This document shows, piece by piece, positions 12,425 to 60,677 of a stretch of DNA of 64,000 bases (position 1 is the stretch's first letter; every line of letters begins with the position of its first letter). The translations under genes and the position numbers were made by a program. This stretch comes from Cyanidioschyzon merolae (taxonomy: Eukaryota), in NCBI GenBank assembly GCA_000091205.1, contig AP006501.2, one strand, 5' to 3'. A model generated the notes under the pieces. The model was given only the letters and a program-made list of their open reading frames with translations, ran no database searches and was not told the origin of the DNA.

Positions 12425-14256
12425 CCTACGAGCTCGGCGACCATACGCTCTGCAGCTTTCTTAGAGCCCTCCAAACTTCGGGGCTACACGTTTCGCACGC
12501 ATGGCGCCGCACCGGACACGTGTCGCATTCTCATACGAATCGCCAGTGCTCGATGTCGAATCGCCGACGGTGGCGTGTGCTGGGAAAGTGTCCATATGAT
12601 ACATGCTTGTTCTATCTTTGCCATTTATCTTCCTTGCGGGATGGATATTGATGTTCGGGCATGCGTCCATCATGCTTCATGCTCCGTCCAAGTACCATAA
12701 ACCAAACATTCTTTCGGATATACTGGTCATTCCGTATGTTCAATCGTGCACCAAGTGGCGGCCTTGCTGCGTCCCCAATAGCACCTGTACCGCTGGTACG
12801 GATCAAGTACGGAGACAGAACAGCTTTGCCACACCACTAAGAGCGTGGGCCCGAGGCCGAATGTATTCGAAAACCGGGCCGGGATTCGTGATCATGCTGG
12901 GAGCCTGTAAGCTGCGCAGACAAAAACTACTGCCTGTGGCAGCGCGAAGCGATGTTGTACGGGTCCAATGCGACCTGGACGACGCCCAGACGCAGCCGAT
13001 ATGCTCCTAGTCCCAGACTAAACTGCGTTGCGGACGAGCTGCTCAGGTGTTACTCCAACGTCCGCCAATGGGGACGCACGAAGCGTTTGCCCAGCAGACT
13101 CGTCGAGCTCGCGGGACCTTCCGCCTACAAGGTAGACTTTAGAATTTACGGAAAACATTGCCCGCTTTCAACGCATACCGTTGAGGGGAAAGAAATCGTT
13201 ATCTCATCGCTAGTTAGTGGTTCGTTTGTGTTCTTTACTATGAGGATCGTTCAACACCTCATCCGTCGTCGATGCTTTCTTCGTGCCCTCTCCTTTGCAC
13301 GAGAACAATGAATCTCCGAGCGGCATTCCAGATATCACTGCAGCGTGGCTGCTATCGCGAAGGTTCAGCACACTGTATCGGCCTTGTGTGACGTCTTGCG
13401 AACGTGCCCCTTGCGAAGGCGTGAGCAACGCAGGGTTGGGGCTCTAAATGCACTGAAAGATGCAGCGATGGAAACTGGAGTGAGGGAGCTGAGCGACCGA
13501 CCTCCCGTCGTACGTGGAACGTATTGAAACCCATCAAACAGAACGAAAGGGTAGCGTCGAATGTGCGTGTGGTGGACATCGATGAATTGCGGACGTCGAT
13601 CACGTGTTTTTGGTGCACAAGTTGCCTCCCGAAAATGACTGGGATGACGACGAGACTCATCACCAACGACGCAACGAAAGAAAAAGATTGATGTCGTGTA
13701 TTGCTCGGATCCCCAAAGTGCAGCTCCACTAGAGTGTCAGACGCCAGGGCAGAGGGTAATCTTCCAGCCGAGGCACCATATCAAACCGTGACAACAGTGG
13801 ATGCTCCAGCACTTTGTAGCTGTTAAAGATCAGAATGAGAGGAGGTCAACAACCTGCATCGCTTCGTCGCACAAGAGAAATTAGAAATCCAAGCCCAGAG
13901 GGAAAAAGCTTATAATCCTCCCATACCAGAGTTCTTGATACGAGAGAATGGCTGTTGTGTCCTGGGTCTCGTACACAACGAGCATGATGTACTCTGATAC
14001 AGCAATGAGACAGCATTGGTATCAGATCGTACGCAGAGCCTGGCGGAGGCACCCGCGAGCCGTCGCGAAGCGCAGCTCCTGATGCGCGCGTCGATGCTGC
14101 AATCTGAAAGCGGCGGCGGCATCGCGACGCTGCACCACAGAGACTGCTTCGAGACGTTCATGCCTTACTGCTGTGATTCACGAGCGCTTCACCATAACCG
14201 TGCCTTACACTGCGGAAAACTTTTGGGACTCTTGTAAAGAGTGGTCTGGTTCCTAG

Positions 14257-15438: not shown

Positions 15439-16082
15439 GTGGGTCATCTATGAATAGTCAGCTGCAGTCGATAAAGTATCCACATTGTCGAAGTGAACTG
15501 GCAACACTTATGAATCTGCGGTTCAAGAAAATCAGTGCTGGATTTCAGGCCGCTCCAGCAGGTGCAAACCTTACCGTCCTTGACGCGGAAGCACGCGGCT
15601 GTCAGCGCTCCATATGCAGTCGTGCTCACAGAGTGCCGGATCAGGTAACTTGCGTAGTTAAACAATTTAAATCAGTTCCGCATTCCAAGGTCCATGCAGA
15701 ATGAACTAGAAGCATAAGGAATACACGCATACCCGAGCTCGCGAACTGGTGCGTGACTAGTTTGTTTACGACCAAGATGCATAACAAAACTACCATTAAC
15801 TAGTTTTTTCCAGTGACAAACGTTTACTTAGGCCAGCGTTCTCCGAATATGCGCATTTTTTTCCATTGACAAAACTACCATTGACTAGTGGAATGCACGC
15901 CTCACTTGCCAACGCGCTGACCAGCGCTGATACCAGGACGCGCTGCTACGCAGCATCCGCTTCGGTGCTCCTAAACTTTAGGGCGATACTCCAGCGCTGT
16001 AGTGTTTGCTGGATCAGACCTGAATATGACTTAGTCAACTTTAAACGGTTCCTCTAGCGTCTTTCTCAATAGAGTTTTGAAG

Positions 16083-46115: not shown

Positions 46116-47459
46116 TCAACGAGCCTGCGGCATGCCATCGGATCCCGCCTGGGCCTCTACGGCGCGATGCACGGTGATCTCGTGACGTGCTAACCATCGT
46201 TTCATCTCCTCAAAGGTGACCATCATAATACCAGACGCTGGAATCACCTTCGCCACTCGTGGCAAGGCACCGCGAAAGAGCCCCGGAACGCCCTCTTCGC
46301 GGAGCAGCTGCCGGATTGCCGGCCAGAATCGCATCACGAGAGATGGCTTCTCGCGCGTGTCCAAATGCGAAGGCGTCTGACCCGTGAGCGCCTTTGCGGA
46401 TATTCGCACACCTGGCCACGATTGATTTCGAGTCTTGACCACATCGGCCGGATTGGTTACCACAGCGGCAACCATGCCGGCAGTGACGCCAGAGAAAAAA
46501 TGGTAACTACTCCGTGTCGCAGCCGATTGTTCCCAGTTTTCAAGAATAGAGCGCTTCGCTGCTGAATTCGCGTCCACTGGGGAGGTGGTAGCTTCGTGCA
46601 TCATCCTGGATCGAGCGACTTTGAGAGACTCATAAACGCCCCAATAGATCGCAGAAAATGGAGCATCACGCCATAGAGTTGCGGCGAGGCCGGTCCAGAG
46701 TGCTCGAACACCGCCTCCTTCACGCAAAGTGCATCGCAGCGTTTCCCAGATCGTGCCTCCATTAGCCTGCATGGATGTACGCACCAGTTCAAGAGGCGAA
46801 ACAGCAGTTGCCACGAGACAGCGCACTGCTGCACCTGTGAAAGGCGCCACGAACAGTGGATCCGCAAGCCGACTGTCTGCTGGGCTGTAGCGCAGGATCA
46901 GTTGCGTGCCCTGCTCGTACAGCCCAAAATACAGACCAGTCGCAGGCACTATGGTCAAAATAGAGGCACTGAGCCCACGCCAAAGACCCGTCACACCAGC
47001 AACCCTTACAATGGACGCAATGGTTCCCCAGACTGTGGGTTGCAGCCGCCGCACTGTCGCTTCCAGCGCGCTCCGTGCCGACACCAGACGCTCGGAAGCA
47101 CACAAGTCACTGTGTTGCACGCCGACGTCATTTTTACGTAGCAAGTCCCCAACCTGGCTGCCACCTGGTCCGAGACTTCGCACCGCTGCTTGAAGTGGCG
47201 AGATCGTCGCAGCTTCGCCAACTGGGCCGGGTTCATTTGCCATAGCCGCCCAGGAGCTGGAGTATTTGCCACACCTGGGGCACACGCTGCCGCTCGGTTC
47301 ACGAAAGCTCAGGCGATTCTTGTAAGCCTCGACATTTTGGTTCTGCATCGCCACCTTCACAACGTCGATGGGGTTCAGAACAACTGCCGTAACCAAAGCG
47401 CCGGTAGAAGCAGCAACAACGGATTGCCAGAGCGGCAGCTGAGTCTCCCGCTTCTCCAT
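46116..47459 (-). CDS. mitochondrial carrier family (SLC25) protein with an extended Cys-containing first matrix loop (SLC25A39/40/Mtm1-like)
   Basis: Three carrier repeats with P-x-D/E-x-x-K/R signatures are present (PIDVVKVAMQ, PLELVRTSMQ, PADVVKTRNQ). A long insert after helix 1 contains CPRCGK. The ORF-track start at 47462 is GTG. The ATG is at 47459. Confidence 0.8.
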   Translation of the reverse strand: MEKRETQLPLWQSVVAASTGALVTAVVLNPIDVVKVAMQNQNVEAYKNRLSFREPSGSVCPRCGKYSSSWAAMANEPGPVGEAATISPLQAAVRSLGPGGSQVGDLLRKNDVGVQHSDLCASERLVSARSALEATVRRLQPTVWGTIASIVRVAGVTGLWRGLSASILTIVPATGLYFGLYEQGTQLILRYSPADSRLADPLFVAPFTGAAVRCLVATAVSPLELVRTSMQANGGTIWETLRCTLREGGGVRALWTGLAATLWRDAPFSAIYWGVYESLKVARSRMMHEATTSPVDANSAAKRSILENWEQSAATRSSYHFFSGVTAGMVAAVVTNPADVVKTRNQSWPGVRISAKALTGQTPSHLDTREKPSLVMRFWPAIRQLLREEGVPGLFRGALPRVAKVIPASGIMMVTFEEMKRWLARHEITVHRAVEAQAGSDGMPQAR

Positions 47460-47971
47460 CACGCCACTGTTGAACCGAACAGCCAGAACTCATTCGGTTG
47501 CTGCGATTTTCTCCCAAACACACACCTTGACGCTCGTATATCGCTCGTAAGTTGTTCGTAAAGTGCTCAGTAAGGCTTGTACCAACGGTTTCGCTCCAAC
47601 ATCAACAGCAGCGGCAACAGTTGCGTTTCCAAAGCCTTTCCAGTCTCGGGCGACAACGCGATATAGGTCGCTGCTGTGGGCGTGATCGCCGCTCCTCGTT
47701 TCGTCCACGCACACCTAGACAGACGTTCTGTCTCGCCTTGCGCACTTGGAGCAGCACACACAGCGTCGTTGTGCTTTGAGGTGCTGAGCTGGGTACCTTC
47801 TGATCCTTCACGTCCGATCAGGTGAGGCGGGGGTTTTCGAAGAGTCAATTATTGAGTGGACGGAGAACGCTGTGCGGCACTGACTTCGTCGAGTGCGTCG
47901 CTGACGGACGTGCTACGTGTTGCTCGAAGCGCCTCTGTGCTCGTTCGCCTCAGGACGAGTAATCCACCACC

Positions 47972-49363
47972 ATGAGCGTATCTTGTGGACGGCGGATCTT
48001 TTCAGACATTGTGCGTCAAGTACGCACGTTTGCTACCGTGGGCGTAGACGCTCGCTCGCTTGCAGGTACACGCAACGCCACGGTCTGGCGATCGTACCGC
48101 ACGACGACGTTGCAGTACCCGCGGCTTTGGGAACTGCGCGCTTCGCGCTTCCTCTCAGGTGAGGCGGTGGAGGCGAGTGCAAGCAAACGCAAGCCCCATC
48201 TGAATGTTGGCGGTATGGGTCACGTTGACCATGGGAAAACTACGCTCGCGGCAGCGATTACGAAAGTGCTCGCCGAGACTGGTGGAGCCCGGTACACTGC
48301 TTACGAAGAGATTGACAAGGCACCGGAGGAGCGCGCCCGCGGGATCACGATCAACGCTTCGCATCTCAAATACGAGACTCCATCACGTTCGTATGCACAT
48401 GTCGATTGCCCTGGGCATCGAGACTTTGTGAAGAACTTTATCACGGGTGCGGCACAGGTCGACACCGCGATTCTCGTGGTCAGCGGCCCGGACGGCCCGC
48501 AGCCGCAGACTCAAGAGCACGTACTGCTATCGAAGCAGGTAGGTGTTCCGAACTTTGTTGTATACCTGAACAAATGTGATATGGTCGACGATCCGGAACT
48601 TTTGGACTTGGTCGAATTAGAGGTGCGTGAACTACTCAGCAAGTACGAATACGATGGCGACAACGTGCCGATCGTGCGGGGCTCTGCCCTGAAGGCATTG
48701 CAGGGCGATCAGAGCGAGCTTGGCTGTGGGTCCATCCACAAGCTCCTGGAGATTCTCGACAAGGTCCCAATACCCAAAAGAGACCTTGAAAAACCGTTCC
48801 TGATGCCCATTGAAGATAGCTTTAGCATTACTGGCCGAGGAACGGTGGTTACGGGACGCGTGGAGACCGGTATCCTACGCCCTGGTGATGAAATCGAAAT
48901 CGTCGGACTTCGTCCTCCCGAGGTAGCACCAATGCGCACGATCGTCACCGGTATCGAGACTTTCAAGCAGTCGCTTCCTTACGCAGAGGCTGGCGAGAAT
49001 GTTGGCTGTCTGCTTCGCGGGGTCAAGCGCGAAGACGTGTTGCGCGGTCAGGTTCTAGCGAAACCGGGAACCTCCAGAGCGCACCGCAAGTTCGAGGCTG
49101 ACGTTTACATTCTTACTCAGGAGGAAGGCGGCCGCCATACACCATTCTTCAGCAACTATCGTCCTCAATTCTTCGTGCGGACTGCAGATGTCACAGGACG
49201 CTTCCTTCTGCCGCCAGAAGTGGAGATGTGCATGCCAGGAGATCGCGTACGATGCGCTGTTGAGCTCATCTATCCGGTCGCGCTGCAGGAAGGCTTACGT
49301 TTCGCTGTTCGTGAGGGCGGCAGGACCGTCGGTGCTGGGTTGGTTACGAAAGTCATCGAGTAA
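47972..49363 (+). CDS. TUFM: elongation factor Tu, mitochondrial (nuclear-encoded, with presequence)
   Basis: The start is an ATG. The G-domain motifs are [18 protein letters not shown] and NKCD. The mitochondrial-type signature is [13 protein letters not shown]. An N-terminal Arg-rich extension of ~60 aa precedes these. Confidence 0.9.
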
Positions 49364-50267
49364 ACTGCTGTGGATTTCTGCTGACGAGCATGCTACGAGT
49401 GCGAGTATTTCGTCTTGTCTGAACAGATACGAGGCCACGTGCTTTCGCTTCCACGCCGGGCGAGAGTCATTTGCCCAGGGTCTTGCAGTTGTTGGTGACG
49501 GGCTTTGGCTCTGTCACTGAAAATAGGACGTTTCACGTGGATATTAGGGACCGAAACGCTTCGTGCACTGCAATGAATGCATCGTGGGAATCTCTGCTGT
49601 GTACTCTGCGAACAGAATATTGCCTGCACGACACCGCGCAGCACCAGTACGCACAACCGTGTGGCGACGGTGTGTAGAGTCGGGTTCAGACGTCGATAGC
49701 TGTTCCGCTCGAAGGCCTAGAGCCCAAATCGATGCCGTGTATGTTCGGCAAGTTGCGTCGCGAATCACTTCGAACGATCTCCGGCATCATTCCTCGGAAC
49801 ACCAGACTGGTGTTCTAACGCTAGAGCAGTCCCATTACTGCGTCTGTGTTCGGATCCTAAAACAATTCCTGCAATCCTGATGGACATAGGTTTTGCCTGC
49901 GGCAGTCGGAGGACTCGAGTCGACGTTCTTCCTCCGACAAGCTGCACCGCAATGCTGTCTCCATCATATGCTGAGTCTTGTCGACCAGAAGAGGCACTCT
50001 GGGTGCTTGGACTTAAGGGTAGCTAGCGACTTTGTATCCGTGCAAATCAAGCACAAGAAGAATCAACAAGGTCATTTAAAAGAGCTTCGTCAGCAGAGCC
50101 GTCGTCGAAGGGGGATATTCTCTCGCCAGGCGACGCCTATTCCCGCGCCACATGCCAGGGTACCGTTTATGCCAATGAAGCTCTCTCGATGTTGGCGCTC
50201 AGAACAAGACCGGTTTCAGAAGCTTCTTCCGAGAAGTTGAAGGGCACCCCGCTCCTTCTGCACGTCT

Positions 50268-50780
50268 TCACGACTCTTCCAACGTCTGGCGAACAAGGCT
50301 TCGAACCCGCCGTCGGTACGCATCGGGTTGTTCGCGCCACTCCTTAGCAGCATCTATATTCGCGGGTGATTCGTCATTCGGGGACGCGAGCATGCTGATC
50401 ACAGATAGTAGAATCGACTCAACAGTATGAACAGGTGACCAACGTTCGCCGGCCATTTCATACCCGTGTGGGTCGTCACCCGGAGGATGCAGAATGCTGA
50501 TGCAAACTTCGCCGTTTCGGTAAACGTTCGGATGCCAGGGTATTGGCGGCAAAAACCTCATTCTTGGCGGCAACATAGGGTACTCCGGTGGAAACGTAAG
50601 CTCCGCTCGAAACAGGCCCCCCTCGAAGGGCGTGTCTGGAGGGCCCAGCACCGTAACAGCCCAACGGAAGGGATCGTCCTCCGAAACGAGTCCCGCGCTG
50701 AAACCGTCCACGGAGCTCTTATTCAAGTCCCGAAGTTGACGGGTGAGAAGCAGCGCCGCACGCGAAGAGTTCGCGCTCAT
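50268..50780 (-). CDS. ubiquitin-conjugating enzyme E2, UBC7/UBE2G-type
   Basis: The UBC fold contains the active-site sequence HPNVYRNGEVCISILH followed by the UBC7-specific acidic loop PPGDDPHGYEMAGERW. The ORF-track start at 50915 is an extension. The first conserved Met, starting MSANSS, is at 50780. Confidence 0.8.
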   Translation of the reverse strand: MSANSSRAALLLTRQLRDLNKSSVDGFSAGLVSEDDPFRWAVTVLGPPDTPFEGGLFRAELTFPPEYPMLPPRMRFLPPIPWHPNVYRNGEVCISILHPPGDDPHGYEMAGERWSPVHTVESILLSVISMLASPNDESPANIDAAKEWREQPDAYRRRVRSLVRQTLEES

Positions 50781-50818
50781 TGTCTCCGCTGCTAGCGAAC
50801 GCCTTTCAAAAAAAAGGT

Positions 50819-50892
50819 TGCTCCCGGCAGTGTACAGTAGCGGCGAGTGACCCGCCCTAGACGAGACGTCTCCAACTGAGGTGCAGACGCCT
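50819..50892. repeat. left copy of ~74-bp direct repeat flanking the Fanzor-like locus
   Basis: The left copy reads gctcccggcagtgtacagtagcggcgagtgacccgccctagacgagacgtctccaactgaggtgcagacgcctg. The copy at 54371..54444 reads gctgcccgcggtgcacggtagtggcgagtgacccgccctaaacatgacgtctccaactgacgtgcagacgcttc. They are ~85% identical and in the same orientation. Both are preceded by A-rich tracts. Confidence 0.6.
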
Positions 50893-51002
50893 GTCGGGCT
50901 TTCTCGACCGGCCACTTACTACTCTTTTCCATTCTTGTCTCATATAATTCCACTTTGAGCGATTGTCCAACGAAGTTCTCTCGTGTCTAAGCTGTAGGTC
51001 TA

Positions 51003-53347
51003 TTACCCGTCACCGCGCATTTTTCTCATATTGATTGCGGAGTTAAAGTCTCGGTTCACGAAATCCATTCGTTTCTTGCCATCACTGGATGTACTTACTA
51101 CGGCAAGTTGTCCGAGAACTTTCGCCCTCCTTTCCATTTGCTCTTCTGTCAGCGCTCCGTACTTTGCTATTTCCTCAGGGCTCCTCTGGCACTTTTCCAT
51201 CTTCACTCTCTGAAGTGTACAACCCAGCTCATGGTGAGTATAGGACGTTCGAAACTCCTCTACCCGTATCATAACGAAACGACGTGCGCACTCCTTGTAC
51301 ACCCTCGTCGTTGGAGCTAGCGTAGTTCCTTTTTGGGTCTTCCAGCGCCCTGCTCGATACGCTACTACGAGCCTCTGACTGTCATCCTCCATCAAGGCAC
51401 TCAGCTGATTGAAAAAATTCGCGACCGCCCGCTGCTTCCCACAATACAAATTCATTCGCAAACGAGCCCACCGGGGCTTGGTATACTCTTTCCACAGCGT
51501 ATCCCAGTGCGCCATGCGAACTTCCATGACTTTCCGAAAAGCTTCAAAGTCCGCTCCTCGGCAAGTCACCTAGCTCCAAGCTTCCAGGTGATCTTTCATT
51601 CCTGAAATCCATGTCTCGATTTTCTTCCTCGCATTCATGATTCCCGAGTCTTGATAGTATCTCCCTCTCGAGAACCTCAAAAGACGCATGTCTTTCTGAC
51701 GTAAGTTACCATCAGTACCATCTTCCGCACGCTTCAATGCTGCGATGGTAATGATATTCGTATTCCCAGGGTCCGCGCCAACGACAAAGTCGTTATCTAG
51801 CACTCTCTGGGTCGCAGGGCCCACCTTCTTGTCTTCTTCATGCTTCACCGCGTCAACGACAAGGTCTTTATCCTGCATTTCCTGCGTCGTAGAATCCGCC
51901 TTCTTCGCATCTTCATCCTTCGCCGCGTCAACGATAAAGTCGTTATCCTCCACCGCCTGCGTCGCAGGACCCGCCTCTTGGTTTTCTTCATGCTCCTCTG
52001 CGTCAACGGCAAGCTCGTTATCCTCCACCTCCTGCGTCGCAGGACCAGCCTCCAGCTCATCTTCATCGTTCGTCACGCCAACGACAAGGTCGTTATAATG
52101 CACCTCATGCATCGCAGGATCCGCCTCCTACTTTTCTTCAGCCCTCGTTCCGGGCGCAGCCGATGGAGGGACTGGACGATCTTTCTTCAACCGTCGATAG
52201 TGTACGCACACGGTTACTCCATCGGTTTCGATCATCCCAGTGAGCTACTTTTGCTTGCTCGTTTTGAGACGTTTGAAACCGAAGATATTCTTCCAGTACG
52301 TCTCCCGGTTTTCGCCGGTGAAGTGCTCCCTACTAATATTGAACTCCGCACTGATCTCCTTTATGATGCCGTAAAGGACCGCGGAGTCGATCGTCATAAA
52401 ATGAGCCTTGATGTTGCACAACGGAACGACATTGAAGCACTCACCCAATAGGAAAGCCTTCCGTCTCTCCCATTCTTCATTTTTCCTCACTCAGCTTCAT
52501 CTCCGCTTTGCGTTCGAGCTCTCGGCCCAGAAACACAAAATACCGCCGGAAGATGCGATAGTATCTTTCCTTATCTTTTTTCAACTCTGATATCTTGTCT
52601 GTTGGATTCACCAGCCCCAAGACTGCACGATGCTCTTGTATAGCCGCACGGGTTACAGATACTTCATTCGTGCTCCTTTTTTGACGTCTTCTTGTCGACG
52701 AATTCGACGTAATCTTCATGCTGGCGATCTTTCGTGATGCCACTGATGATCGACCATATCCCCTTGCGAGAGATGCCCGGGTTGAGTGCAAACGCGGTGC
52801 GTATCATGAAACATGCGAGGTTCTCTGTCAAATGGTTCTTCAGGTTCGTGATGTACTTCATTGCCCCATATGTGTAAATATGCGAGTCACCCCTGCGCCG
52901 AGCACCCTCGAAGCGGAATACCGCGAAGTTTTCGTGGAGAGTATGCATTAGCACATTTTCCCTCCACGTTCCCGCTGTACCATGCATCAGGTATCGAAAA
53001 GACGTCTTGTCGAAGAACTCGCCCGGAATCTCGACCGTTTCCATCTGCGTCATTTGTTCGTACATCTCCCTCGCCAAATGCATCAGTCCGGAAGACGCCT
53101 TGGCAATACTCTTGGAGTACGAGTCGACATGCTTTCTGATAGCGTCTCGCAACTTTTCCGTATAGGGATGCTTGATATGTCCAAGAAGAGAGGTTTTCAC
53201 CACTATCTCGTGGTACAGTTGTCGTTCTTGCAGCCTTCGACGTAGGGCCTCCCATTTTGCTTCTTTTTCTTTTGCTCTTCGTCGGGACTCGGCACTGTAT
53301 TTGTTTTTCTGGCAGCCGGCGACAATGGCGCTTCAGGATCGTGGACT
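51003..53347 (-). pseudogene. degraded Fanzor/TnpB-like RuvC nuclease gene (eukaryotic OMEGA/TnpB homolog), interrupted by stops and frameshifts and containing an acidic tandem-repeat block
   Basis: Consecutive minus-strand ORFs at 52664..53203, 52477..52791, 52245..52490, 51570..52112 and 51003..51569 are collinear. A RuvC-I-like segment [16 protein letters not shown] lies at ~52200. A TSxxC pre-zinc-finger motif FVMIRVEEFRTSYTHHELGC lies at ~51230. The RuvC-III motif KKRMDFVNRDFNSAINMRKM lies at ~51030 (cf. TnpB/Fanzor RDxNAAxNI). ORFs 51570..52112 and 51003..51569 are in the same frame, separated by a single TGA. No ATG precedes the N-terminal frame. Confidence 0.55.
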
Positions 53348-54370
53348 TGCTTTTTCATAGCTCTCCTTTTTTAGGTATTTTCGAAAAAGAACGCTCTTTG
53401 AACCCTTCTGTTATATACTGCGAAAAAGTACTTGACTAGACTTGTTTGAGGGCTGAAACAAAAATGAACTGAAAGACTTTACTTGGCTAAGAGCTCAACG
53501 GAAATCCAACTTTTTCTGGCAGAACAACACGCTCGTTACTAGGATCGCGTTTCCCTTCAACGGCGGCATGCGCGTCGTGTCAGTTCACTGCCTGATCTCC
53601 GAGGCGTGCTCCCTGAGCGCGATGCGTGCACCGCGCGAGACGCTGCACCGATCCATGAAGGACACGTGTCCGACACCGCCTTGGCATATGCGTATTCGCA
53701 CCGCACTGCAGCTGGAATAAAGTATCGTAGATTGGAAACTCACGTAGAATGATCTCTTGCCATAGGCTCTGGCGGCGGTGCCAACGCTACTGCCCATCGC
53801 AGTACCGACCTGACGTACAAGGGGATTTTGGGGCCTGGCGAGATACCCCTCGACGCTTCTATAAAAAGCGTTGCGTTCTCTGCGGCTTACGCTTGTGTGG
53901 ATAAGGAAAACATTATTCTACTCAATGGGATTTTCGTTAGTTTTATTGATCGTAAACAAACAAGGCACGATAGGATTCCTGAACACGGATACACGTTTAA
54001 TCCCGGTGCTTGTTATGCATGCGGCACGGACGCTGGAATAACGAACTGACCTGAGTTGTGCTTCTATCCTGCGTCACGTTCTGGAACTGATGGCAGATCA
54101 AGTCATTTCCATGCTATCGTCGTTGTCCAAGTTATGGCGCCCGCTACTCTCCCGGATCCTGTGATCTTGGGAGAGGCATAGCATACATAGAGCGTTCATA
54201 CGTGGCACAGCACTTGACCAACGCATCTCACCTGGAACGATCGAGGAACCCGCCAAAAAAAGCATACTGAATTCTGATCTACTCTTTAAGATTAGTTTCA
54301 GGAGACTAACCCATACATCGAGCCCGGAAGAGACACAGCCGACAAAAAATGCTTTTGAAAAGAAAAACGC

Positions 54371-54444
54371 TGCTGCCCGCGGTGCACGGTAGTGGCGAGT
54401 GACCCGCCCTAAACATGACGTCTCCAACTGACGTGCAGACGCTT
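54371..54444. repeat. right copy of ~74-bp direct repeat flanking the Fanzor-like locus
   Basis: See the left-copy entry for the alignment. This copy lies 3,552 bp downstream in the same orientation. Confidence 0.6.
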
Positions 54445-54827
54445 CCAAAATAACATACCACCGGAGGAAATTCCCTTATACCTCCTCTACGGTATTCGTC
54501 GGAGAGCCACGTCGACGTTCGTGAACGGTCGTTTAGATATCTGAGCGCAGCACTGCGGAACCCTTGGCACTAACTGCTGATGAGGTTGTTGATGGGAAGC
54601 ATAGGAGTTTTGCCTAGTTTCTCAGAAAGACATTGAGCACTTGTGCTAGATGTGCTCAACGCTATGCAGTGTACGGGAGATATAGGTCAGACTCTGGACA
54701 ATTGACGGGCGATCACTCTTGCAGCTACGCAAAAGAGGTTTTTGACTGGATACGCATGGTTGAGCGAACGTCTCTAGTTGGTGGCGCGTTCAGCAGCTTT
54801 GCACCAGAGGAAATCTAATGCAAGAAA

Positions 54828-55903
54828 ATGCAAGCTCTTTTCGTTTTTGTCCCGTTGTACCAGGAAAGACACATTGTTCGCGCGCGCGCTGCAACTCGAG
54901 CACGGTTCCCGCTACGTACCGCACGTGACGGGTGCTTCGCAGACGGACAATGCCACCACTGTCAGCATCCGCTTCCCTTGTTAGTGCAGCCCTCGCCTGT
55001 AGCACGCCGGCACCACGCTCTGCATCTTCGTATGGGCCCGAAACAGTCGCAGGTCGCCGTGATCACTGGCGCGTCCTCTAGAGTCGGTCTGTATTCCGCT
55101 CGCGCTCTGATCAGCAAGGGCAACTGGCACATCGTCATGGCATGTCGTGACGTCGACCGGGCGGAACGCGCAGCAAACAGCGTGAACCTTCCAAAGGACG
55201 CCTATACAGTGCTGCATTGTGATCTGGCTGATTTCGCCTCTGTGTTGAAGTTTGCGAGAGAGCTATCGAGTGTGGCGCGCGTGGATCACCTGGATGCCCT
55301 GATCTGCAATGCCGCACTCTGGCATCCGCGGGACAAGAAACCGCTTCTCACGGTGGACGGCATCGAGAAGGCCATACAGGTTTGCTATCTGAGCCATTTG
55401 CTTATATGTCGGAGGCTATTGCCGAAGCTGAAAGTATCGCGCGGGCGCATTGTGTTTCTGACGACTCAGACCCATTCGCCGAATTCGTTGCCGGGAAAGA
55501 TTCCCCCGCAGGCTCGTCTCGGTGACTTGTCTAGTCTAGCCGCGGGGCTTGGTCCGCGGACGACGGGCATGGTGGACAGTGGCCCGTTTGAGCCCACAAA
55601 AGCCTACAAAGACGCCAAAGCCGCGAACGTTTTATCAATGAAGGCGCTCAGTGATCGATACGGCCGCGACGGGGTGACCTCTGTGGCGATTTTCCGGGAT
55701 GTGTCGCCGACAGCAACCTCTTCCGCGAAAAGCGTGGCTGGTTCCGATACGTATTCTTCCCGATTCTTCAGAAGTATATCACTCCGCAATACGTTCCGAA
55801 TGACGAGGCCGGCCGCCGTGTAGCCGAAGTGGCGACCCAGGGACAGTTCCCGGACTCGGGCTCGTATTATCAGTGGCGTGGCAAATATACGTATGGGGGA
55901 TAG
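54828..55903 (+). CDS. POR: light-dependent protochlorophyllide oxidoreductase (LPOR, SDR family) homolog with an apparent 1-nt frameshift near 55695
   Basis: The LPOR alignment runs full length. VAVITGASSRVGLYSARALISKGNWHIVMACRD matches ViTGASSGLGLaTAKALAetGkWHViMACRD. The LPOR-specific insertion loop (…PPQARLGDLSSLAAGL…KAYKDAKAANVL) is present. In frame 0 the ORF reads …GVTSVAIF, then the homology continues in frame +2 as PGCVADSNLFREKRGWFRYVFFPILQKYITPQYVPNDEAGRRVAEV… (cf. [47 protein letters not shown]). It ends at TAG 55901–55903. One C missing from ttcc(c)ggg at ~55695 explains the shift. The ~68-aa N-terminal extension MQALFVFVPLYQERH… resembles a transit peptide. Confidence 0.75.
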
Positions 55904-56182: not shown

Positions 56183-57804
56183 ATGTGGAGAACCAAAATT
56201 GCTTCGCAAGTCAGAAAGCGTACTGCAGTAGTGATTAATATAGCTATAGCTATGACCTACTTCGCATCGAATGCGCCAGAGACTGCCAACTGTGGTCGTT
56301 CAAGAGGGCAGAGCGCGTTTATTTGGGTAATTTTGTGCGGTGAAGAATACGGCAATAGAAGCGCACTTGCAGACGTTTGAACGATCTGTGGGTATTCGAT
56401 ATCAAACTGGGTCAACGGGCGTGGATTAATGGAAGCTCGGTAGTGAATACTCTAGCAGTATATGGGGCATTGAGCGAGTCAGGCCCGAATAGTGTACCAA
56501 GTACTCGCTATGGATCAGCTTTCTGGGACACTAGTAGGACTGATCCGATCGTATTTGTTGGAAATGGATACATAAACACGAGCGGCAGTGACTTTCTCAA
56601 TGATGTCTTTGCATTAAAGAAAACATTCCCTACTCCAACACCAAAAACTTCGCGGACACCTACCCCCATCTGCTCCAATGAGCTCTGCGGATCTCCAGGA
56701 CAGTGCATCAACCAGGACGCTTGCGAGCAAGTCGGGTGCTGCTTTAACTCCCAGACGAACGCTTGCACCCTGAAGAGCGTCTCAGCGGCGTGCAGCGCTG
56801 TTGAAGTGACGCAGCGCGTCACCTGCGGCTGGAGCTACATCTACCCCGACGAGTGCACTGCGATACCGGGATGCTGCTGGCAGCCCACAGCGAACGGCAT
56901 CCTGGCACCCTGGTGCTACTACGACATCAACCATGCACCGCAGGCTTCCGTAGCGCTGCAGGAGATGCAGGCACCGGTTCCCGTCTGCGCATCACCGGGA
57001 GCGCAGCGCCAGCCATGCGGCGACGCGGGTATCAACCAGTTTACCTGCTATGCCCAGGGCTGCTGCTACGACTCGCAGGCGCAGAACCAGTGGGTGCAGA
57101 ACGGCAAGCAGCAGAGCGACTTTGCGTCGAACCCGTACTGCTTCCAGCCTGAGAAGACGTGCGCGGTGGGCGAGTTTGAGCGCCAGCCGTGAAATAACGT
57201 GGTGAATCAGAACCAGCAGCGGAGCAACAATAACATCAACAGTAGCCAGTTTGTGCGTCTGCTGAACACGGTCCTTTACGGAGAGCAGCACGGGACGCCG
57301 CGCACGAGCTACGCGTCGCAGCAGTGTCTGGAGGCTGGTTGCTGCCTGGGGATCGGCAACGAGTGCTTCCAGCCGGTTACCGAGTATGTTTGCCAGACCT
57401 ATGGGTATGCGTCGAACTCGCTGAGCGGCACGACCGGCAAAGTGTCGAACTCGACGTATATTCCATGCGGCTCCGAGTGCTGCAACGCCGAGACGCAGAA
57501 CTGCACGTAAAACCCGTTCAGTAACAACAATAACCAGCAACTGCAGCAACAGCAGGTGCTGTTGCCGTCATTCTGTGTGTGCAAGGACCCTACAGTTCAG
57601 TCCGGGACGTACCTGATCGCTTCGGATAACCTTGTGCACAAGGTGCGTTGCTGCCGCTCTGGCGAGGAGTGCATCAACAACAAGTGTATGATGATTAGTC
57701 CTACGCCGTCTCCGAGTGCCGTTATTGCGACTGCAACTGCGTCTGCAAGTGCGTTGGTATTGGTGTCGACCTCGACGCGTGCCTCAGCAAGTACTTCAGT
57801 ATGA
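56183..57804 (+). pseudogene. Kelch-like + triple trefoil (P-domain) cysteine-rich, S/T/P-rich membrane/secreted protein gene, disrupted by one 1-nt frameshift and two in-frame stops
   Basis: The ATG at 56183 is followed by a hydrophobic anchor AVVINIAIAMTYFASNA and a Kelch-type repeat (RGQSAFIWV…GNRSALADV). The frame shifts at ~56376, where gacgttt(t)gaac is missing one T, and continues NDLWVFDIKLGQRAWINGSS…VPSTRYGSAFWDTS. Three trefoil domains follow. The third is CASPGAQRQPCGDAGINQFTCYAQGCCYDSQ…NPYCFQP. It carries R-x-x-CG and GCC(Y/F)D and ends in CF, the WCF position of the consensus. The same frame continues through a TGA at 57190 and a TAA at 57508 into more Cys-rich sequence. It ends with a Ser/Thr/Ala tail. 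Confidence 0.45.
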
Positions 57805-58487: not shown

Positions 58488-60677
58488 ATGCGAAAAAGGT
58501 ATTTTTCTATTGTGAGACTCCTGGTTATAGTATTGGTTGTGTCGGGAACACACACAGTTCGTGGAGTTTTGTCCGCAGAGAATACTGTATTATGGACCTG
58601 GATCGGTGGTAGTAGCTCTAACGGCAGTTCAGGTAGCTACGGTGTTCAGGGTGTGCCGAACACCAGCAACGTGCCTCCGGCGCGGTACGGTGCGGCCTTC
58701 TGGACCGGCGCTGACGGGGTGCTCTGGTTGTTTGGTGGTGGCAGCGACTTGAGAGACGTCTTCGGTGATCTCTGGAACTACAATCTAAGCACGTTCTCTT
58801 GGACCTGGGTTGGAGGCTCTGCATCCCTCAACTCTGGAGGGGTATACGGCTCCCTCGGAGTTCCCAACAAGAGCAACTATCCGCCTTCGAGGACGGAATC
58901 CGCTGCTTGGAGTGACAGCAACGGAAACCTTTGGTTATATGGAGGCTGGAATTTGAACTTGGGCTATAGTGATATGTGGATGTATAATGTATCGTCGGGC
59001 GAGTGGACATGGGAGCAGGGATCCAACAAGACCAATGTTTCCCCGACATATGGTCCTCTTGGGAACTCGTCTGCAAGCAACACGCCTGGCGCTCGTTTCC
59101 AACCCGCGACCTGGGTTGGCCTAGATGACCAGTTTTATCTCTTTGGTGGATTTAGTCCTAGTGGTACGTATTACGGTGACTTGTGGCAGTACAACACAGT
59201 GACCAACGAATGGAGCTGGATAGGTGGCACTCAACAGCTGTCTCCCTCTGGAAGCTATGGTGCGTTTCGCCAGGCATCGCCGAACAGTTATCCCGCTGGA
59301 CGTTTCGGAGCCACCTCGTGGCGAGACCTTGATGGGAACTTTTGGCTATATGGCGGTTTGGGAGAGATTGACGCAGTTGGCAGCTTTCTCAATGATTTAT
59401 GGCTGTACAATATCAGCTCCAAAGAATGGACTTGGATGTCTGGAGATGACAGTGTTGGCTCAAATGGGGCAGTATACGGCGAGAAAGGAGTGCCGTCATC
59501 GAGCAACACTCCGGGGTACAGATCCGGTTCCTCTGGATTTGTAGACTCGTCAAACACTCTGTATCTCTTCGGTGGTGTTTCACGCGGCGTCTGCAACGAC
59601 CTGTGGACGTTCAATATAACGAGTCTTGAATGGACTTGGGTAGACGGTGACGATACAACGAATGGAGCCTATAGCTACGGCGAGGTTAACAAGACAAGCA
59701 ATACAACGCTTCCACCTCCGCGATACGATGCAGTTCTTTGGAATACCGATCAAAACGACCCGGTCCTATTCGGAGGCCTCGGTAGCTCAGGTAGCTATAA
59801 CGACCTCTTCACATTATACATCGCAGCACCGACGCCTACACCGACCGCAACACCGACTCCGACGGCCTCACCGACGCCCTCCGTTACTGCAGCACGGTCG
59901 GCAACGACAAATGTGACGCAGACCGCTGTAGGCGAAGGCTCTGCGGTCTGCTTCCCCGCGGATGCCTCGGTGCTGATCGATGGTCTGGGCAACCATCTGC
60001 AGATAAGCGAGCTTCGATCAGGTATGGCCGTGATGGGCGTCAATGGGCGCGGGCAACTGGTCGAAGATAGTGTACTAGGATGGTTGCATAACGAGCCCGG
60101 CGCTACTGCAGAGATTCTGGCGATCAAGACGCTTTCCGGAAAGCAGCTGCGTCTGACGAGACAGCATCTGGTATATCGAGTGATCGAACACTTTAGAGAC
60201 TTTGATAGTATGATGACCACTTTCTCGTGTATTTCACAGAAGCAGCAGCAGCAGCATCAGAAGCACATACGTCGGAGCCTTGAGTTGGGTACCACCGCCG
60301 TTGAGGCAGTTTTCGCGGAAGATATCCGCGTTGGCGACGCTCTGCTGGACGTTGCTGCGCACCTGCCGGACCCCGTGGTGGCAATCGAGACAGTAGTTAC
60401 GCACAATGGTCTCTATGCGCCGTTGACTCGCTCAGGGCGCCTTGTGGTCGACGGCGTTCTCGTGAGCTGCTACGGGACGTACGCATCGCATGCCGTGGCC
60501 CATGCAGTGTTGTGGCCTGCGCGGGTCGATGCTCTGCGCAAGGTATGGACATCAGGGCTCGGCACAGAGGGTATTGTGGGTATCATGCCATACGCAGAAA
60601 GGCTCTATCACATTTGGACGAGTGCAGCACGTGTTTTAACGGAGGCTCGCGTAAGTGTTGTAGTTGCAGCCTGCTGA
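58488..60677 (+). CDS. Hog-type protein: signal/anchor + 6-blade Kelch beta-propeller + Thr/Pro linker + C-terminal Hint (Hedgehog/intein-like autoprocessing) domain
   Basis: The start is an ATG. The N-terminal hydrophobic segment is IVRLLVIVLVVSGT. Kelch repeats recur about every 50 aa with a W.W(I/V)GG…YG..G…P.RyG…W…g.L(W/Y)l(F/Y)GG…DLW.YN motif. A linker APTPTPTATPTPTASPTPS follows. The Hint domain starts at Cys (nt 59949). CFPADASVLIDGLGNHLQISELRSGMAVMGV…ILAIKTLSGKQLRLTRQHLVY matches Hedgehog CFPGSATV.leqGGtK.vkdL.pGDrVLAad…ie…t.ltltAaHLlF. NGLYAPLTRSGRLVVDGVLVSCYG matches GaYAPLTaqGtiLinrVLASCYA. Confidence 0.75.
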   Translation: MRKRYFSIVRLLVIVLVVSGTHTVRGVLSAENTVLWTWIGGSSSNGSSGSYGVQGVPNTSNVPPARYGAAFWTGADGVLWLFGGGSDLRDVFGDLWNYNLSTFSWTWVGGSASLNSGGVYGSLGVPNKSNYPPSRTESAAWSDSNGNLWLYGGWNLNLGYSDMWMYNVSSGEWTWEQGSNKTNVSPTYGPLGNSSASNTPGARFQPATWVGLDDQFYLFGGFSPSGTYYGDLWQYNTVTNEWSWIGGTQQLSPSGSYGAFRQASPNSYPAGRFGATSWRDLDGNFWLYGGLGEIDAVGSFLNDLWLYNISSKEWTWMSGDDSVGSNGAVYGEKGVPSSSNTPGYRSGSSGFVDSSNTLYLFGGVSRGVCNDLWTFNITSLEWTWVDGDDTTNGAYSYGEVNKTSNTTLPPPRYDAVLWNTDQNDPVLFGGLGSSGSYNDLFTLYIAAPTPTPTATPTPTASPTPSVTAARSATTNVTQTAVGEGSAVCFPADASVLIDGLGNHLQISELRSGMAVMGVNGRGQLVEDSVLGWLHNEPGATAEILAIKTLSGKQLRLTRQHLVYRVIEHFRDFDSMMTTFSCISQKQQQQHQKHIRRSLELGTTAVEAVFAEDIRVGDALLDVAAHLPDPVVAIETVVTHNGLYAPLTRSGRLVVDGVLVSCYGTYASHAVAHAVLWPARVDALRKVWTSGLGTEGIVGIMPYAERLYHIWTSAARVLTEARVSVVVAAC

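What the first reader, a model, noticed from the sequence alone, without database searches (positions are those of the whole stretch)
50819..54444. Degraded Fanzor/TnpB-like RNA-guided-nuclease gene bracketed by 74-bp direct repeats next to the UBC7 promoter
Collinear minus-strand ORF fragments carry the three RuvC hallmarks in the right order. They are a hhhDxG RuvC-I-like strand, a V..V.E.yTS..C pre-zinc-finger segment, and a C-terminal NRDFNSAINM (RDxNAAxNI) RuvC-III motif. This is the Fanzor/TnpB signature. The locus is bounded by two ~85%-identical 74-bp direct repeats 3.55 kb apart, each preceded by an A-rich tract. The left copy sits only ~40–110 bp upstream of the UBC7-type E2 start codon. 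The gene is decayed: a single in-frame TGA joins two ORFs, several frame changes occur, and no initiator ATG precedes the N-terminal frame. The zinc-finger cysteines are largely lost. Together this looks like the relic of a Fanzor-carrying transposon inserted into a housekeeping-gene promoter region. The ~110 bp between the nuclease stop (51003) and the left repeat (50893) would be the expected position of an omega-RNA / right-end scaffold.
Basis: partly seen in the sequence, partly recalled or inferred. Interest (0 to 1): 0.65.

Follow-up and report, generated by a model that had tools for sequence, protein, structure and literature searches.

The report
Dead Fanzor1 transposon copy (CMe-1A)

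Summary
The window is Cyanidioschyzon merolae 10D nuclear DNA. The minus-strand ORF fragments are a decayed copy of the Fanzor1-bearing repeat CMe-1A, which Bao & Jurka described in 2013 (about 150 copies, 3,169-bp consensus). The published consensus, positions 649-3169, aligns to window 53620-50800 at 84.8% identity. Against it, the copy has 5 frameshifting indels and 4 premature TAG stops. The start ATG (53358), the three catalytic codons and the natural stop (50857-50859) are all still recognisable.

Family membership is solid. A profile of relatives hits the solved Fanzor1 structures PpFz, SpuFz and GtFz (E = 1.7e-19 to 6e-7). A confident AlphaFold model of an intact relative finds the same three by fold.

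The 74-bp direct repeat is real (84% over 83 nt), but it does not mark transposon ends or a target-site duplication. The left copy is the element's own last ~100 nt, including the final 11 codons. The right copy is a rare solo copy of that tail, 0.7 kb upstream of the family core.

The tail can fold into three hairpins and sits where Fanzor guide RNAs are encoded. Covariation support is weak and there are no RNA data.

The element ends 5-20 nt before the UBC7 ATG.

Verdict: already known, low interest.

The parts
50800..53620 (-). Decayed core of a CMe-1A repeat (the Fanzor1-bearing element of C. merolae). It aligns to published consensus positions 649-3169.
   Evidence: Global alignment to the consensus from Bao & Jurka 2013, supplementary file 2: 84.8% identity over 2,513 columns. 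The same limits appear in coverage by about 60-90 other copies.
50857..53358 (-). Fanzor1 pseudogene, from the family start ATG (53358-53356) to the family's natural stop TAG (50857-50859). It is broken by frameshifting indels near 53254 (-1), 52682 (+1), 52484 (-2), 51024 (+1) and 50937 (+1), and by premature TAGs at 52245-47, 52128-30, 51570-72 and 50987-89.
   Evidence: Codon-by-codon mapping of the 734-aa consensus ORF onto the window; tblastn with intact relatives; six-frame translation.
51762..51779 (-). RuvC-I motif GADPGN, with the catalytic Asp codon retained.
   Evidence: This Asp is invariant in the 54-sequence family alignment.
51348..51368 (-). Canonical RuvC-II position. The family has VVAYGAG (Gly in place of Glu, the 'rearranged' Fanzor site); the window copy has VVAYRAG.
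   Evidence: The rearranged site is described in PMC10530073.
51243..51263 (-). Alternative catalytic Glu motif. The family has VDEFRTS; the window has VEEFRTS, with the Glu codon retained.
   Evidence: This Glu is invariant in alignment A4.
51036..51056 (-). RuvC-III motif. The family has NRDFNAA; the window has NRDFNSA, with the Asp codon retained.
51773..52147 (-). Five 75-bp tandem units (25-aa acidic repeats) inside the ORF. The published consensus has one unit, so the window carries +75 and +225 bp, both in frame.
   Evidence: The number of units differs between relatives.
50786..50892 (-). It holds the last 11 codons, the stop, and about 60-70 nt of non-coding tail. It is predicted to form three hairpins: H0 50892-50864, H1 50859-50838 and H2 50823-50797. 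It is the candidate omega-RNA scaffold and/or right transposon end.
   Evidence: It equals consensus 3073-3169. Alignments of 38-46 copies. Per-copy folds show the same three hairpins in most copies. Mean z = -1.4, against about 0 for upstream coding windows. Covariation is weak. Homology with the L090 copy runs to about 50786.
54334..54446 (-). It starts at the first base of hairpin H0 and has no Fanzor coding sequence upstream of it.
   Evidence: 84% identity to consensus 3073-3168. It is one of only 3 solo sites among 100 module sites; the other two are its own paralogous or duplicate versions in L058 and L065.
53621..54333 (-). Leader or spacer of unknown nature. It replaces the TE-N2_CMe-like first ~640 nt of the published consensus. 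A few other copies share it (L030 to 54061, L090 to at least 54183, L058 and L065 throughout).
50268..50780 (-). UBC7-type E2 ubiquitin-conjugating enzyme gene (host gene, context only). Its ATG lies 5-20 nt beyond the element's 3' end.
   Evidence: Pfam UQ_con, E = 1.7e-44; translation. The same arrangement is present in 10 environmental contigs at 98.4-99.3% identity.

Best explanation
The locus is a dead, fixed copy of CMe-1A, the old multi-copy Fanzor1-bearing repeat of Cyanidioschyzon merolae.

Shown:
- The DNA is 85% identical to the published consensus from consensus position 649 to its last base.
- Its 734-codon ORF is destroyed by 5 frameshifts and 4 TAG stops.
- The protein family belongs to Fanzor1, the eukaryotic branch of the TnpB/Cas12 RuvC nucleases. 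It has the RuvC-I Asp, the 'rearranged' RuvC-II (Gly at the canonical site plus an alternative Glu about 35 residues on) and the RuvC-III Asp.
- The '74-bp direct repeat' is the family's 3'-terminal ~100-nt module. It is present once as the true end of this copy and once as a solo copy 3.55 kb away.

Inferred from characterised Fanzor1 and TnpB systems:
- In intact family members, the 3' module overlaps the last 11 codons and runs to the right end of the element. It would be transcribed as the scaffold of an omega-RNA.
- The guide of that RNA would be the host sequence just beyond the end. The Fanzor1-RNA complex would then cut sites that match that guide next to a transposon-adjacent motif.
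- I put about 0.5 on that role for the module. It may equally, or also, be the cis-acting right end needed for mobilisation.

This copy can no longer make the nuclease. Its only plausible present-day effect is passive: its tail now forms almost the entire sequence upstream of the UBC7 start codon.
For: - Organism: the mitochondrial EF-Tu ORF in the window is an exact match to C. merolae 10D BAM83042.1.
- Known family: Bao & Jurka 2013 (PMC3627910) describe CMe-1A as about 150 copies, about 80% identical to the consensus, about 3 kb, no TIRs, TSD undetermined, 734-aa Fanzor1.
- Direct alignment: consensus 671-2193 matches window 53597-52076 at 83.6%. Consensus 2117-3169 matches 51852-50800 at 85.1%. 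Consensus 3073-3168 matches 54446-54351 at 84.4%.
- The global alignment gives 84.8% identity, with the indel and stop inventory.
- Family size: 287 and 138 close protein relatives, and 346 loci in metagenome contigs.
- Fanzor1 membership by sequence: the C. merolae-only profile finds 1,505 cluster representatives at E <= 1e-3. A 54-sequence profile that includes them hits PpFz1 9cf0 (1.7e-19), SpuFz1 8gkh (5.2e-11) and GtFz1 9cer (5.8e-7).
- Fanzor1 membership by fold: an AlphaFold2 model of relative P0145 (pLDDT 83, pTM 0.78) has those same Fanzor1 structures as its top 7 Foldseek hits (E = 2e-12 to 2e-8, TM up to 0.60). TnpB and Cas12 follow far behind.
- Tail module: it is conserved to the element end in all copies and gives three hairpins in most copies. 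It has lower folding energy than coding controls.
- The terminal hairpin exists in two different sequence versions that both pair: CGTTCGA/TCGAACG and CGTTTTTC/GAAAGACG.
- Literature: Fanzor guide RNAs map to the 3' region abutting the right end. They can overlap the C-terminal codons (17 aa in GtFz1), and gene-less copies exist, namely Spizellomyces 'ghost loci' and 20 extra fRNA copies in Chlamydomonas.
Against: - Direct Pfam scans of the window fragments and of intact relatives give no TnpB/OrfB hit. Distant relatives give only sub-threshold PF07282 hits.
- phmmer and the family-only profile found nothing in the PDB.
- The clade lacks the CCCC zinc finger found in TnpB and SpuFz1.
- For the omega-RNA role: RNAalifold on the last 325 nt found almost no consensus structure.
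- Covariation on the three hairpins does not exceed shuffles for 4 of 5 measures, although 81% of cells pair against 37-60% in slid controls.
- Rfam has no match, and there are no expression data.
- The 5' limit of this copy is not defined. Family copies carry at least 5 different upstream segments.
Confidence: 0.93

Rival explanations
1. The two 74-bp repeats are the termini (LTR-like ends or a long target-site duplication) of a 3.6-kb Fanzor-carrying transposon that inserted into the UBC7 promoter.
For: The repeats are real, in direct orientation, 3,552 bp apart and far beyond chance. The same arrangement of solo tail, leader and Fanzor copy recurs in L058 at about 82% identity.
Against: - The left repeat lies inside the element as defined by the published consensus. 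It contains the last codons and the stop.
- 97 of 100 tail sites have no upstream partner.
- L030, which shares the same leader, has no solo tail upstream of it.
- About 0.7 kb between the right repeat and the family core is absent from most copies.
- The repeats are only 84% identical, no closer than any two family copies are to each other.
Confidence: 0.04
2. The conserved 3' module is not a guide-RNA scaffold. It is only the cis-acting right end, a set of sub-terminal hairpins recognised by an unknown transposase. This would resemble IS200/IS605 ends or a Helitron 3' hairpin, or the 3' tail a partner retrotransposon uses. The solo copy would then be a severely 5'-truncated insertion.
For: - The 3' end is constant while the 5' regions vary.
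- There is a strong terminal hairpin 10-15 nt from the end.
- Bao & Jurka call CMe-1A non-autonomous and of unknown class.
- Nothing but the Fanzor1 gene is encoded in the consensus.
Against: - In every Fanzor and TnpB system tested, the right-end region also encodes the guide RNA, so the two roles are not exclusive.
- No Helitron-type CTRR end appears in the alignment.
- Solo or truncated tails are rare, effectively one event in about 0.9 Mb, unlike elements mobilised through a 3' tail.
- No transposase or reverse transcriptase was found next to the copies examined, though this was not searched systematically.
Confidence: 0.35
3. The repeat is a host regulatory element, a promoter or 5'-UTR motif of housekeeping genes, and only coincidentally lies next to the Fanzor relic.
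For: The left copy ends 5-20 nt before the UBC7 ATG. The arrangement is fixed in all 10 environmental orthologous contigs.
Against: Every other occurrence found is the end of a Fanzor1 ORF: 97 of 100 sites. It is the terminal 96 nt of the published transposon consensus. The right copy is not followed by any gene.
Confidence: 0.02
4. The gene is still functional, and the stops and frame changes are bypassed by read-through, programmed frameshifting, introns or assembly errors.
For: The catalytic codons are all retained. All four premature stops are the same codon, TAG.
Against: - Five separate indels of -1, +1, -2, +1 and +1 plus four stops are spread over 2.5 kb.
- Independent environmental assemblies of the same locus, at 98.4-99.3% identity, show the same fragmented ORF pattern of 172-188 aa and 180 aa pieces.
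- Most other family copies are broken as well. Only 1 of 80 loci has an open frame longer than 700 aa.
Confidence: 0.01

Closest known systems
CMe-1A / CMe-1 (Fanzor1 element and protein of Cyanidioschyzon merolae; Bao & Jurka, Mobile DNA 2013, PMC3627910)
   Same: Same organism. The copy is 84.8% identical to the consensus over positions 649-3169. It has the same ORF layout (ATG, 25-aa repeat, RuvC motifs, ...HVSWRRFV* end) and the same 3' terminus. Like the typical member, which is about 80% identical to the consensus, it has no TIRs and no recognisable TSD.
   Different: - This copy lacks the first ~640 nt of the consensus (the TE-N2_CMe-like part) and has a different leader.
- It carries four extra 75-bp repeat units.
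- It is a pseudogene.
- It has a solo copy of the 3' tail 0.7 kb upstream.
Experimentally characterised Fanzor1 nucleases: SpuFz1 (PDB 8GKH), PpFz1 (9CF0) and GtFz1 (9CER)
   Same: The family profile and the predicted fold of an intact relative match these proteins best. They share the RuvC-I Asp, the rearranged RuvC-II Glu and the RuvC-III Asp. They also share a conserved structured 3' region that overlaps the last codons, as in GtFz1.
   Different: - Only about 13-16% identity.
- No CCCC zinc finger in the C. merolae clade.
- An acidic 25-aa tandem-repeat insertion just upstream of the RuvC-I motif.
- No IR-bounded transposon.
- Neither an omega-RNA nor nuclease activity has been shown for this clade.
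Bacterial IS200/IS605 TnpB with omega-RNA (e.g. ISDra2, PDB 8H1J)
   Same: Distant fold similarity of the RuvC core (rank 9). The expected logic is the same: a guide RNA encoded at the 3' end of the gene and the right end, with the guide supplied by the flanking DNA.
   Different: No TnpA partner. The protein is much larger, with a long N-terminal region. The catalytic Glu is relocated. The host is eukaryotic and nuclear.
Gene-less guide-RNA copies: Spizellomyces 'ghost loci' and the 20 extra fRNA copies in Chlamydomonas
   Same: The right repeat (54334-54446) is a copy of only the 3' module, with no nuclease gene attached.
   Different: Ghost loci keep both IRs and about 550 nt. Here only about 113 nt are present, expression is unknown, and such solo copies are rare (effectively one event in the DNA sampled).

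Membership tests
CMe-1A repeat family (Bao & Jurka 2013) | Nucleotide similarity to the published 3,169-bp consensus, at the level typical of members (about 80%) | tested here: met
   84.8% over 2,513 aligned columns; consensus 649-3169 aligns to window 53620-50800.
CMe-1A repeat family (Bao & Jurka 2013) | A 5' segment of about 635 bp shared with TE-N2_CMe | tested here: not met
   Consensus 1-648 has no match at this locus; its only match in the window is at 12634-13236. 16 of 47 family copies likewise lack it, and 8 carry it inverted. It is therefore variable within the family rather than strictly defining.
CMe-1A repeat family (Bao & Jurka 2013) | No terminal inverted repeats and no recognisable target-site duplication | tested here: met
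   No inverted repeat joins the ends. The direct repeat is the element's own tail plus a solo tail, not a TSD.
Fanzor1 (eukaryotic TnpB-superfamily RuvC nuclease) | Significant sequence-profile similarity to established Fanzor1 proteins | tested here: met
   Family profile A4 hits PpFz1 at 1.7e-19, SpuFz1 at 5.2e-11 and GtFz1 at 5.8e-7. C. merolae sequences are linked to the other members of A4 at E = 1e-45 or better. Direct Pfam and phmmer searches were negative.
Fanzor1 (eukaryotic TnpB-superfamily RuvC nuclease) | Fanzor1 fold (REC/WED/RuvC architecture) | tested here: met
   The AF2 model of intact relative P0145 (pLDDT 83) has SpuFz, PpFz and GtFz as its top 7 Foldseek PDB hits (E = 2e-12 to 2e-8, probability 1.0, TM 0.44-0.60). 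The test used a relative, not the broken window copy.
Fanzor1 (eukaryotic TnpB-superfamily RuvC nuclease) | Catalytic triad with rearranged RuvC-II: RuvC-I Asp; Gly or Pro at the canonical Glu position plus an alternative downstream Glu; RuvC-III Asp | tested here: met
   The family has GADPGN, VVAYGAG, VDEFRTS and NRDFNAA. The Asp and Glu are invariant and the RuvC-III Asp nearly invariant across 54 relatives. The codons are retained in the window. The definition of the rearranged site comes from PMC10530073.
Fanzor1 (eukaryotic TnpB-superfamily RuvC nuclease) | CCCC zinc finger between RuvC-II and RuvC-III. This is typical of TnpB and SpuFz1 but not strictly defining, because the founding paper already lists CMe-1 as a Fanzor1. 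| tested here: not met
   0 of 23 relatives have two CxxC pairs in that segment. The C. merolae family has ...THHELGCTLQRVEMEKCQ... only. This is a clade trait, not decay of this copy.
Fanzor1 (eukaryotic TnpB-superfamily RuvC nuclease) | Intact ORF, i.e. a functional nuclease, at this locus | tested here: not met
   5 frameshifts and 4 premature TAGs. The locus is a pseudogene of a family member, not a working member.
Fanzor1 (eukaryotic TnpB-superfamily RuvC nuclease) | Associated omega-RNA (fRNA) transcribed from the 3' end / right end, with its guide beyond the end | tested here: inconclusive
   The tail is conserved, three hairpins are predicted in most copies, and mean z = -1.4. However, the covariation signal is weak, the alifold consensus is poor, and Rfam has no hit. 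Expression cannot be tested with these tools.
IS200/IS605-type TnpB transposon | An adjacent TnpA (Y1 or serine) transposase gene | tested here: not met
   The consensus and the window copy encode only the Fanzor1 ORF. Pfam gives no transposase domain on any neighbouring ORF fragment.
   97 of 100 tail sites have no upstream partner. The 3 solo tails are a single paralogous group.
Helitron-like rolling-circle element (considered because the 3' end is constant with a hairpin, the 5' end is variable, and there are no TIRs or TSD) | A 3' hairpin followed by a CTRR terminus, a 5' TC start, and insertion between A and T | tested here: inconclusive
   A 3' hairpin is present about 10-15 nt from the end. 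However, the terminal consensus is ...GGCGTTGNTGGTG, with no CTRR. The 5' end is undefined, and no Rep/helicase was sought.

The most novel reading that the evidence does not exclude
The 3'-terminal three-hairpin module may still be transcribed, both at the end of this dead copy and as the solo copy at 54334-54446. It would then act as an omega-RNA for Fanzor1 protein supplied in trans by the few intact CMe-1A copies. At this locus its guide would be the first ~20 nt beyond the element, which is the UBC7 5' leader and start codon. Alternatively, or in addition, the module has been co-opted as the core promoter or 5' UTR of this housekeeping E2 gene.
Probability: 0.07. Interest if true: 0.55.

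Novelty: already known. Interest (0 to 1): 0.15.

Why it matters
It matters little. The family, its copy number, its consensus and its Fanzor1 assignment were published in 2013. The function of Fanzor1 as an RNA-guided nuclease was shown in 2023. This copy is a pseudogene.

What the analysis adds is mainly correct annotation:
- The true gene limits are 53358-50857.
- The 'bracketing repeats' are the element's tail plus one solo tail.
- The zinc-finger loss is clade-wide.

Two side observations could be followed up cheaply with existing C. merolae RNA data:
- A candidate ~100-nt guide-RNA/right-end module with three hairpins is conserved across the family.
- A transposon relic now supplies essentially all sequence upstream of the UBC7 start codon in a very compact genome.

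Tried and rejected
- Pfam on each ORF fragment and on five intact relatives gave no TnpB, OrfB or Fanzor family. The precomputed tag PF26935 (DUF8286) was not reproduced.
- phmmer of the window translation and the C. merolae-only profile against PDB sequences gave no hits. Hits appeared only after distant relatives from the 1.84-billion-protein library were added.
- AlphaFold2 on the shallow family-only alignment failed (pLDDT 37), so that model was not used. The 54-sequence alignment gave pLDDT 83.
- The search for an empty (pre-insertion) UBC7 site failed. All 10 contigs encoding the identical UBC7 protein carry the element, and most break inside it, so exact termini could not be read from a filled/empty pair.
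It was redone with a trimmed alignment.
- RNAalifold on the last 325 nt of 46 copies gave -3.4 kcal/mol and 11 pairs, which is uninformative.
- A hand-defined three-helix structure was tested by pair counting. Pairing is high, but covariation is not above shuffles except for the number of pairs with double changes (8 vs 4.5 +/- 1.4; 11 of 500 shuffles reach it). The two versions of the terminal hairpin pair in different registers, so column-wise counting understates them.
- Rfam on 50000-55500 at E <= 1 gave nothing.
- The idea that solo or 5'-truncated tails are common, as expected for retrotransposon-like mobilisation, was rejected: 3 of 100 sites, all one group.
- The idea that L065 is an independent paralogue is uncertain. 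Its identity profile is patchy and its 3' flank matches other contigs at 96%, so it may be a chimeric metagenome contig.
- Caveat: the 80 comparison loci come from metagenome contigs of Cyanidioschyzon-like populations and include the same locus from several samples. After removing tails more than 95% alike, 45 of 72 remained. The counts are therefore not independent insertions.

Full report
**Origin of the window.** The 463-aa ORF at 47972-49360 is an exact match to the mitochondrial EF-Tu of Cyanidioschyzon merolae strain 10D (BAM83042.1 / XP_005539078.1). The window is therefore nuclear DNA of this red alga. Its neighbours are ordinary host genes:
- a mitochondrial carrier (46116-47462);
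- the UBC7-type E2 (50268-50780, Pfam UQ_con E = 1.7e-44);
- a short-chain dehydrogenase (54828-55823).

**The observation.** The direct repeat is real. Positions 50808-50890 and 54360-54442 are 84% identical over 83 nt, and blastn extends this to about 95 nt at 82%. Its two conserved cores occur exactly twice in the 64 kb, against 0.01 and 0.00 expected.

Between the repeats, the minus strand carries ORF pieces in three frames. These contain GADPGN, VEEFRTS and NRDFNSA in that order.

Several details in the finding are wrong:
- The stop between the two large ORFs is TAG, not TGA.
- The family start ATG is present at 53358.
- The reading frame does not end at 51003. After a frameshift it continues into the left repeat.

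**It is a known element.** A literature search for Fanzor plus Cyanidioschyzon led to Bao & Jurka 2013 (PMC3627910). They list one Fanzor1 family in C. merolae, CMe-1A:
- about 150 copies, each about 80% identical to the consensus;
- about 3 kb long, with no TIRs and TSDs not determinable;
- a 5' 635 bp shared with another repeat, TE-N2_CMe.

Their supplementary files give the 3,169-bp consensus and the 734-aa CMe-1 protein. Aligned to the window:

| Consensus positions | Window positions | Identity |
|---|---|---|
| 671-2193 | 53597-52076 | 83.6% |
| 2117-3169 | 51852-50800 | 85.1% |
| 3073-3168 | 54446-54351 (the right repeat) | 84.4% |
| 38-636 (TE-N2-like part) | 12634-13236, not at this locus | 79% |

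A global alignment gives 84.8% identity over 2,513 columns.

**State of the gene.** I mapped the consensus codons onto the window.
- The ATG is at 53358.
- Frameshifting indels lie near 53254 (-1), 52682 (+1), 52484 (-2), 51024 (+1) and 50937 (+1).
- Premature TAGs replace codons 373, 412, 498 and 692, at 52245-47, 52128-30, 51570-72 and 50987-89.
- In-frame changes are a 3-nt deletion and four extra 75-bp repeat units. The tandem array is at 51773-52147.
- The family's natural stop, after ...HVSWRRFV, is the TAG at 50857-50859, inside the left repeat.
- The catalytic codons survive: Asp in GADPGN, Glu in VEEFRTS and Asp in NRDFNSA.

The gene is clearly dead. Ten environmental contigs of the same locus, at 98.4-99.3% identity, show the same fragmentation. 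All of them carry the insertion.

Most other copies are broken too. Among 80 related loci, only one has an open frame longer than 700 aa.

**Is the family really Fanzor/TnpB?** Direct tests are negative:
- Pfam finds nothing on the fragments or on intact relatives.
- phmmer and a C. merolae-only profile find nothing in the PDB.

The family is large. There are 287 and 138 close relatives of the C-terminal and N-terminal halves. The C. merolae profile also finds 1,505 cluster representatives at E <= 1e-3 in a 1.84-billion-protein library, many of them 600-700 aa long. Four of ten of these give sub-threshold PF07282 (Cas12f1-like TNB) hits.

A 54-sequence alignment of these relatives has an invariant RuvC-I Asp and alternative Glu, and a nearly invariant RuvC-III Asp. 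As a profile it hits three solved proteins:
- Parasitella Fanzor1, 9cf0, E = 1.7e-19;
- Spizellomyces Fanzor1, 8gkh, E = 5.2e-11;
- Guillardia Fanzor1, 9cer, E = 5.8e-7.

AlphaFold2 with the shallow family alignment failed (pLDDT 37). With the 54-sequence alignment it gave pLDDT 83 and pTM 0.78 for relative P0145.

Foldseek against the PDB returns SpuFz, PpFz and GtFz as the top seven hits. Their E-values run from 2e-12 to 2e-8, with probability 1.0 and TM up to 0.60. TnpB and several Cas12 types follow at E of about 0.02 or weaker.

The motif pattern is the 'rearranged' RuvC-II site described for Fanzors (PMC10530073): Gly at the canonical RuvC-II position (VVAYGAG), with a Glu about 35 residues later (VDEFRTS).

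The one atypical feature is the lack of the CCCC zinc finger. None of 23 relatives has two CxxC pairs in that segment.

**What the repeats are.** I compared the element with 80 related loci from metagenome contigs.
- Coverage is high from about 53620 to about 50800, then falls to zero.
- A separate peak of 45 matches covers 54350-54446.
- Alignments of the 3' ends show that all copies share the same tail through ...GTCTAGGGCG...CGCCACTACTGTACAC...hairpin...GCGTT, plus about 10 nt.

The left repeat is therefore simply the tail of this copy. It holds the last 11 codons, the stop and about 60-70 non-coding nt. With the most similar subfamily copy (L090), homology runs to about 50786. That is 5 nt before the UBC7 ATG at 50780. 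The published consensus ends at 50800.

The right repeat begins exactly where the tail's first hairpin begins (54446). It has no Fanzor coding sequence upstream of it.

Of 100 tail sites in about 0.9 Mb, only three are solo. These are this one and its counterparts in L058 (a paralogous block at about 82% identity) and L065 (92%, possibly a chimeric contig).

The 0.7 kb between the right repeat and the core (53621-54333) replaces the TE-N2-like leader of the consensus, and only a few copies share it. One of these, L030, has no solo tail upstream of it.

Family copies carry at least five different upstream segments. The TE-N2-like segment is in consensus orientation in 23 of 47 copies, inverted in 8 and absent in 16.

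The repeats therefore do not delimit a transposon and are not a target-site duplication.

**The tail as a candidate guide-RNA or right-end module.** In most copies, the last ~100 nt folds into three hairpins. In the window these are H0 50892-50864, H1 50859-50838 and H2 50823-50797.
- Mean folding z-score is -1.4 for the tail, against -0.2 and 0.0 for the two upstream coding windows.
- The terminal hairpin occurs in two sequence versions that both pair: CGTTCGA-CTT-TCGAACG and CGTTTTTC-TTTT-GAAAGACG.
- Formal support is weak, however. RNAalifold on 325 nt finds almost nothing.
- For the three helices, 81% of cells pair, against 37-60% when partners are slid. Only the count of pairs with double changes exceeds shuffles, at 8 vs 4.5 +/- 1.4.
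- Rfam has no match.

In characterised systems, the Fanzor guide RNA is transcribed from the 3' region abutting the right end.
- It can overlap the last codons (17 aa in GtFz1).
- It carries a 14-21-nt guide from the flanking DNA.
- Gene-less copies exist, namely 'ghost loci' in Spizellomyces and 20 extra fRNA copies in Chlamydomonas.

By position and layout, the CMe-1A tail is the obvious candidate for this RNA, and the solo copy resembles a gene-less guide locus. This is inference. The tail may equally be only the cis-acting end needed for mobilisation.

**Verdict.** The locus is nevertheless a routine, previously catalogued repeat copy, and the proposed anatomy does not hold: neither bracketing termini, nor an omega-RNA between 'stop' and repeat, nor zinc-finger decay.

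Novelty: already known. Interest is low.

The only points worth a quick look in existing RNA data are:
- whether the tail module is expressed;
- whether UBC7 transcription starts inside it.

Noticed in passing
window 12634-13236 (+): A solo copy of the TE-N2_CMe-like repeat, 79% identical to CMe-1A consensus positions 38-636, with no Fanzor gene attached. In 47 family copies this segment sits in consensus orientation 23 times, is inverted 8 times and is absent 16 times. It therefore behaves as a separate unit that often lies next to the Fanzor core.
   Followed up: partly
window 50780-50800: The Fanzor element ends 5-20 nt before the UBC7 start codon, so nearly all of the UBC7 5' leader or promoter sequence is transposon-derived. 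The arrangement is fixed in all 10 environmental contigs of this locus (L004-L013, 98.4-99.3% identity).
   Followed up: partly
window 51773-52147 (-): A 75-bp tandem repeat encodes an acidic 25-aa unit (consensus roughly KHEDEKEAxPATQEVxDNDFVVx) just upstream of the RuvC-I motif. There are five units here and one in the published consensus, and between one and five in relatives. The AF2 model is disordered there (pLDDT below 50, residues 264-303 of P0145).
   Followed up: partly
family alignment A4 (relatives of the window protein); window 51060-51240: The whole Fanzor1 subclade around the C. merolae family lacks the CCCC zinc finger found in TnpB and SpuFz1. None of 23 relatives has two CxxC pairs between the alternative Glu and RuvC-III. 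Most have a conserved RGLLWC.ST motif instead.
   Followed up: partly
window 50850-55677 vs L058:3-4903 and L065:2-4545: A block of about 4.8 kb recurs at about 82% identity in another contig (L058), with a different 3' flank that starts exactly at the element's end. The block comprises part of the SDR gene, the solo tail, the leader and the Fanzor copy. L065 is 92% identical, but patchily so, and may be a chimeric metagenome assembly. This suggests either a segmental duplication or recombination at Fanzor tails.
   Followed up: partly
window 52245-47, 52128-30, 51570-72, 50987-89: All four premature stops in the pseudogene are TAG, and the natural stop is TAG as well. No explanation was sought.
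   Followed up: no
window 58488-60677 (+) and 56377-57192 (+): A 729-aa ORF combines Kelch repeats with a C-terminal Hint (Hedgehog/intein-type) module. A neighbouring 271-aa ORF has trefoil (P-type) domains. Both are unusual-looking host genes unrelated to the finding.
   Followed up: no
window 53918-54049 vs 15672-15803: There is weak similarity (67% over 132 nt) between the leader upstream of the Fanzor core and a distant site in the window. This may be another low-copy repeat.
   Followed up: no
L002:1775-7402: Two CMe-1A copies lie head to head, about 660 bp apart, and share one TE-N2-like segment between their 5' ends. This is why that segment appears in both orientations relative to the Fanzor gene.
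   Followed up: partly
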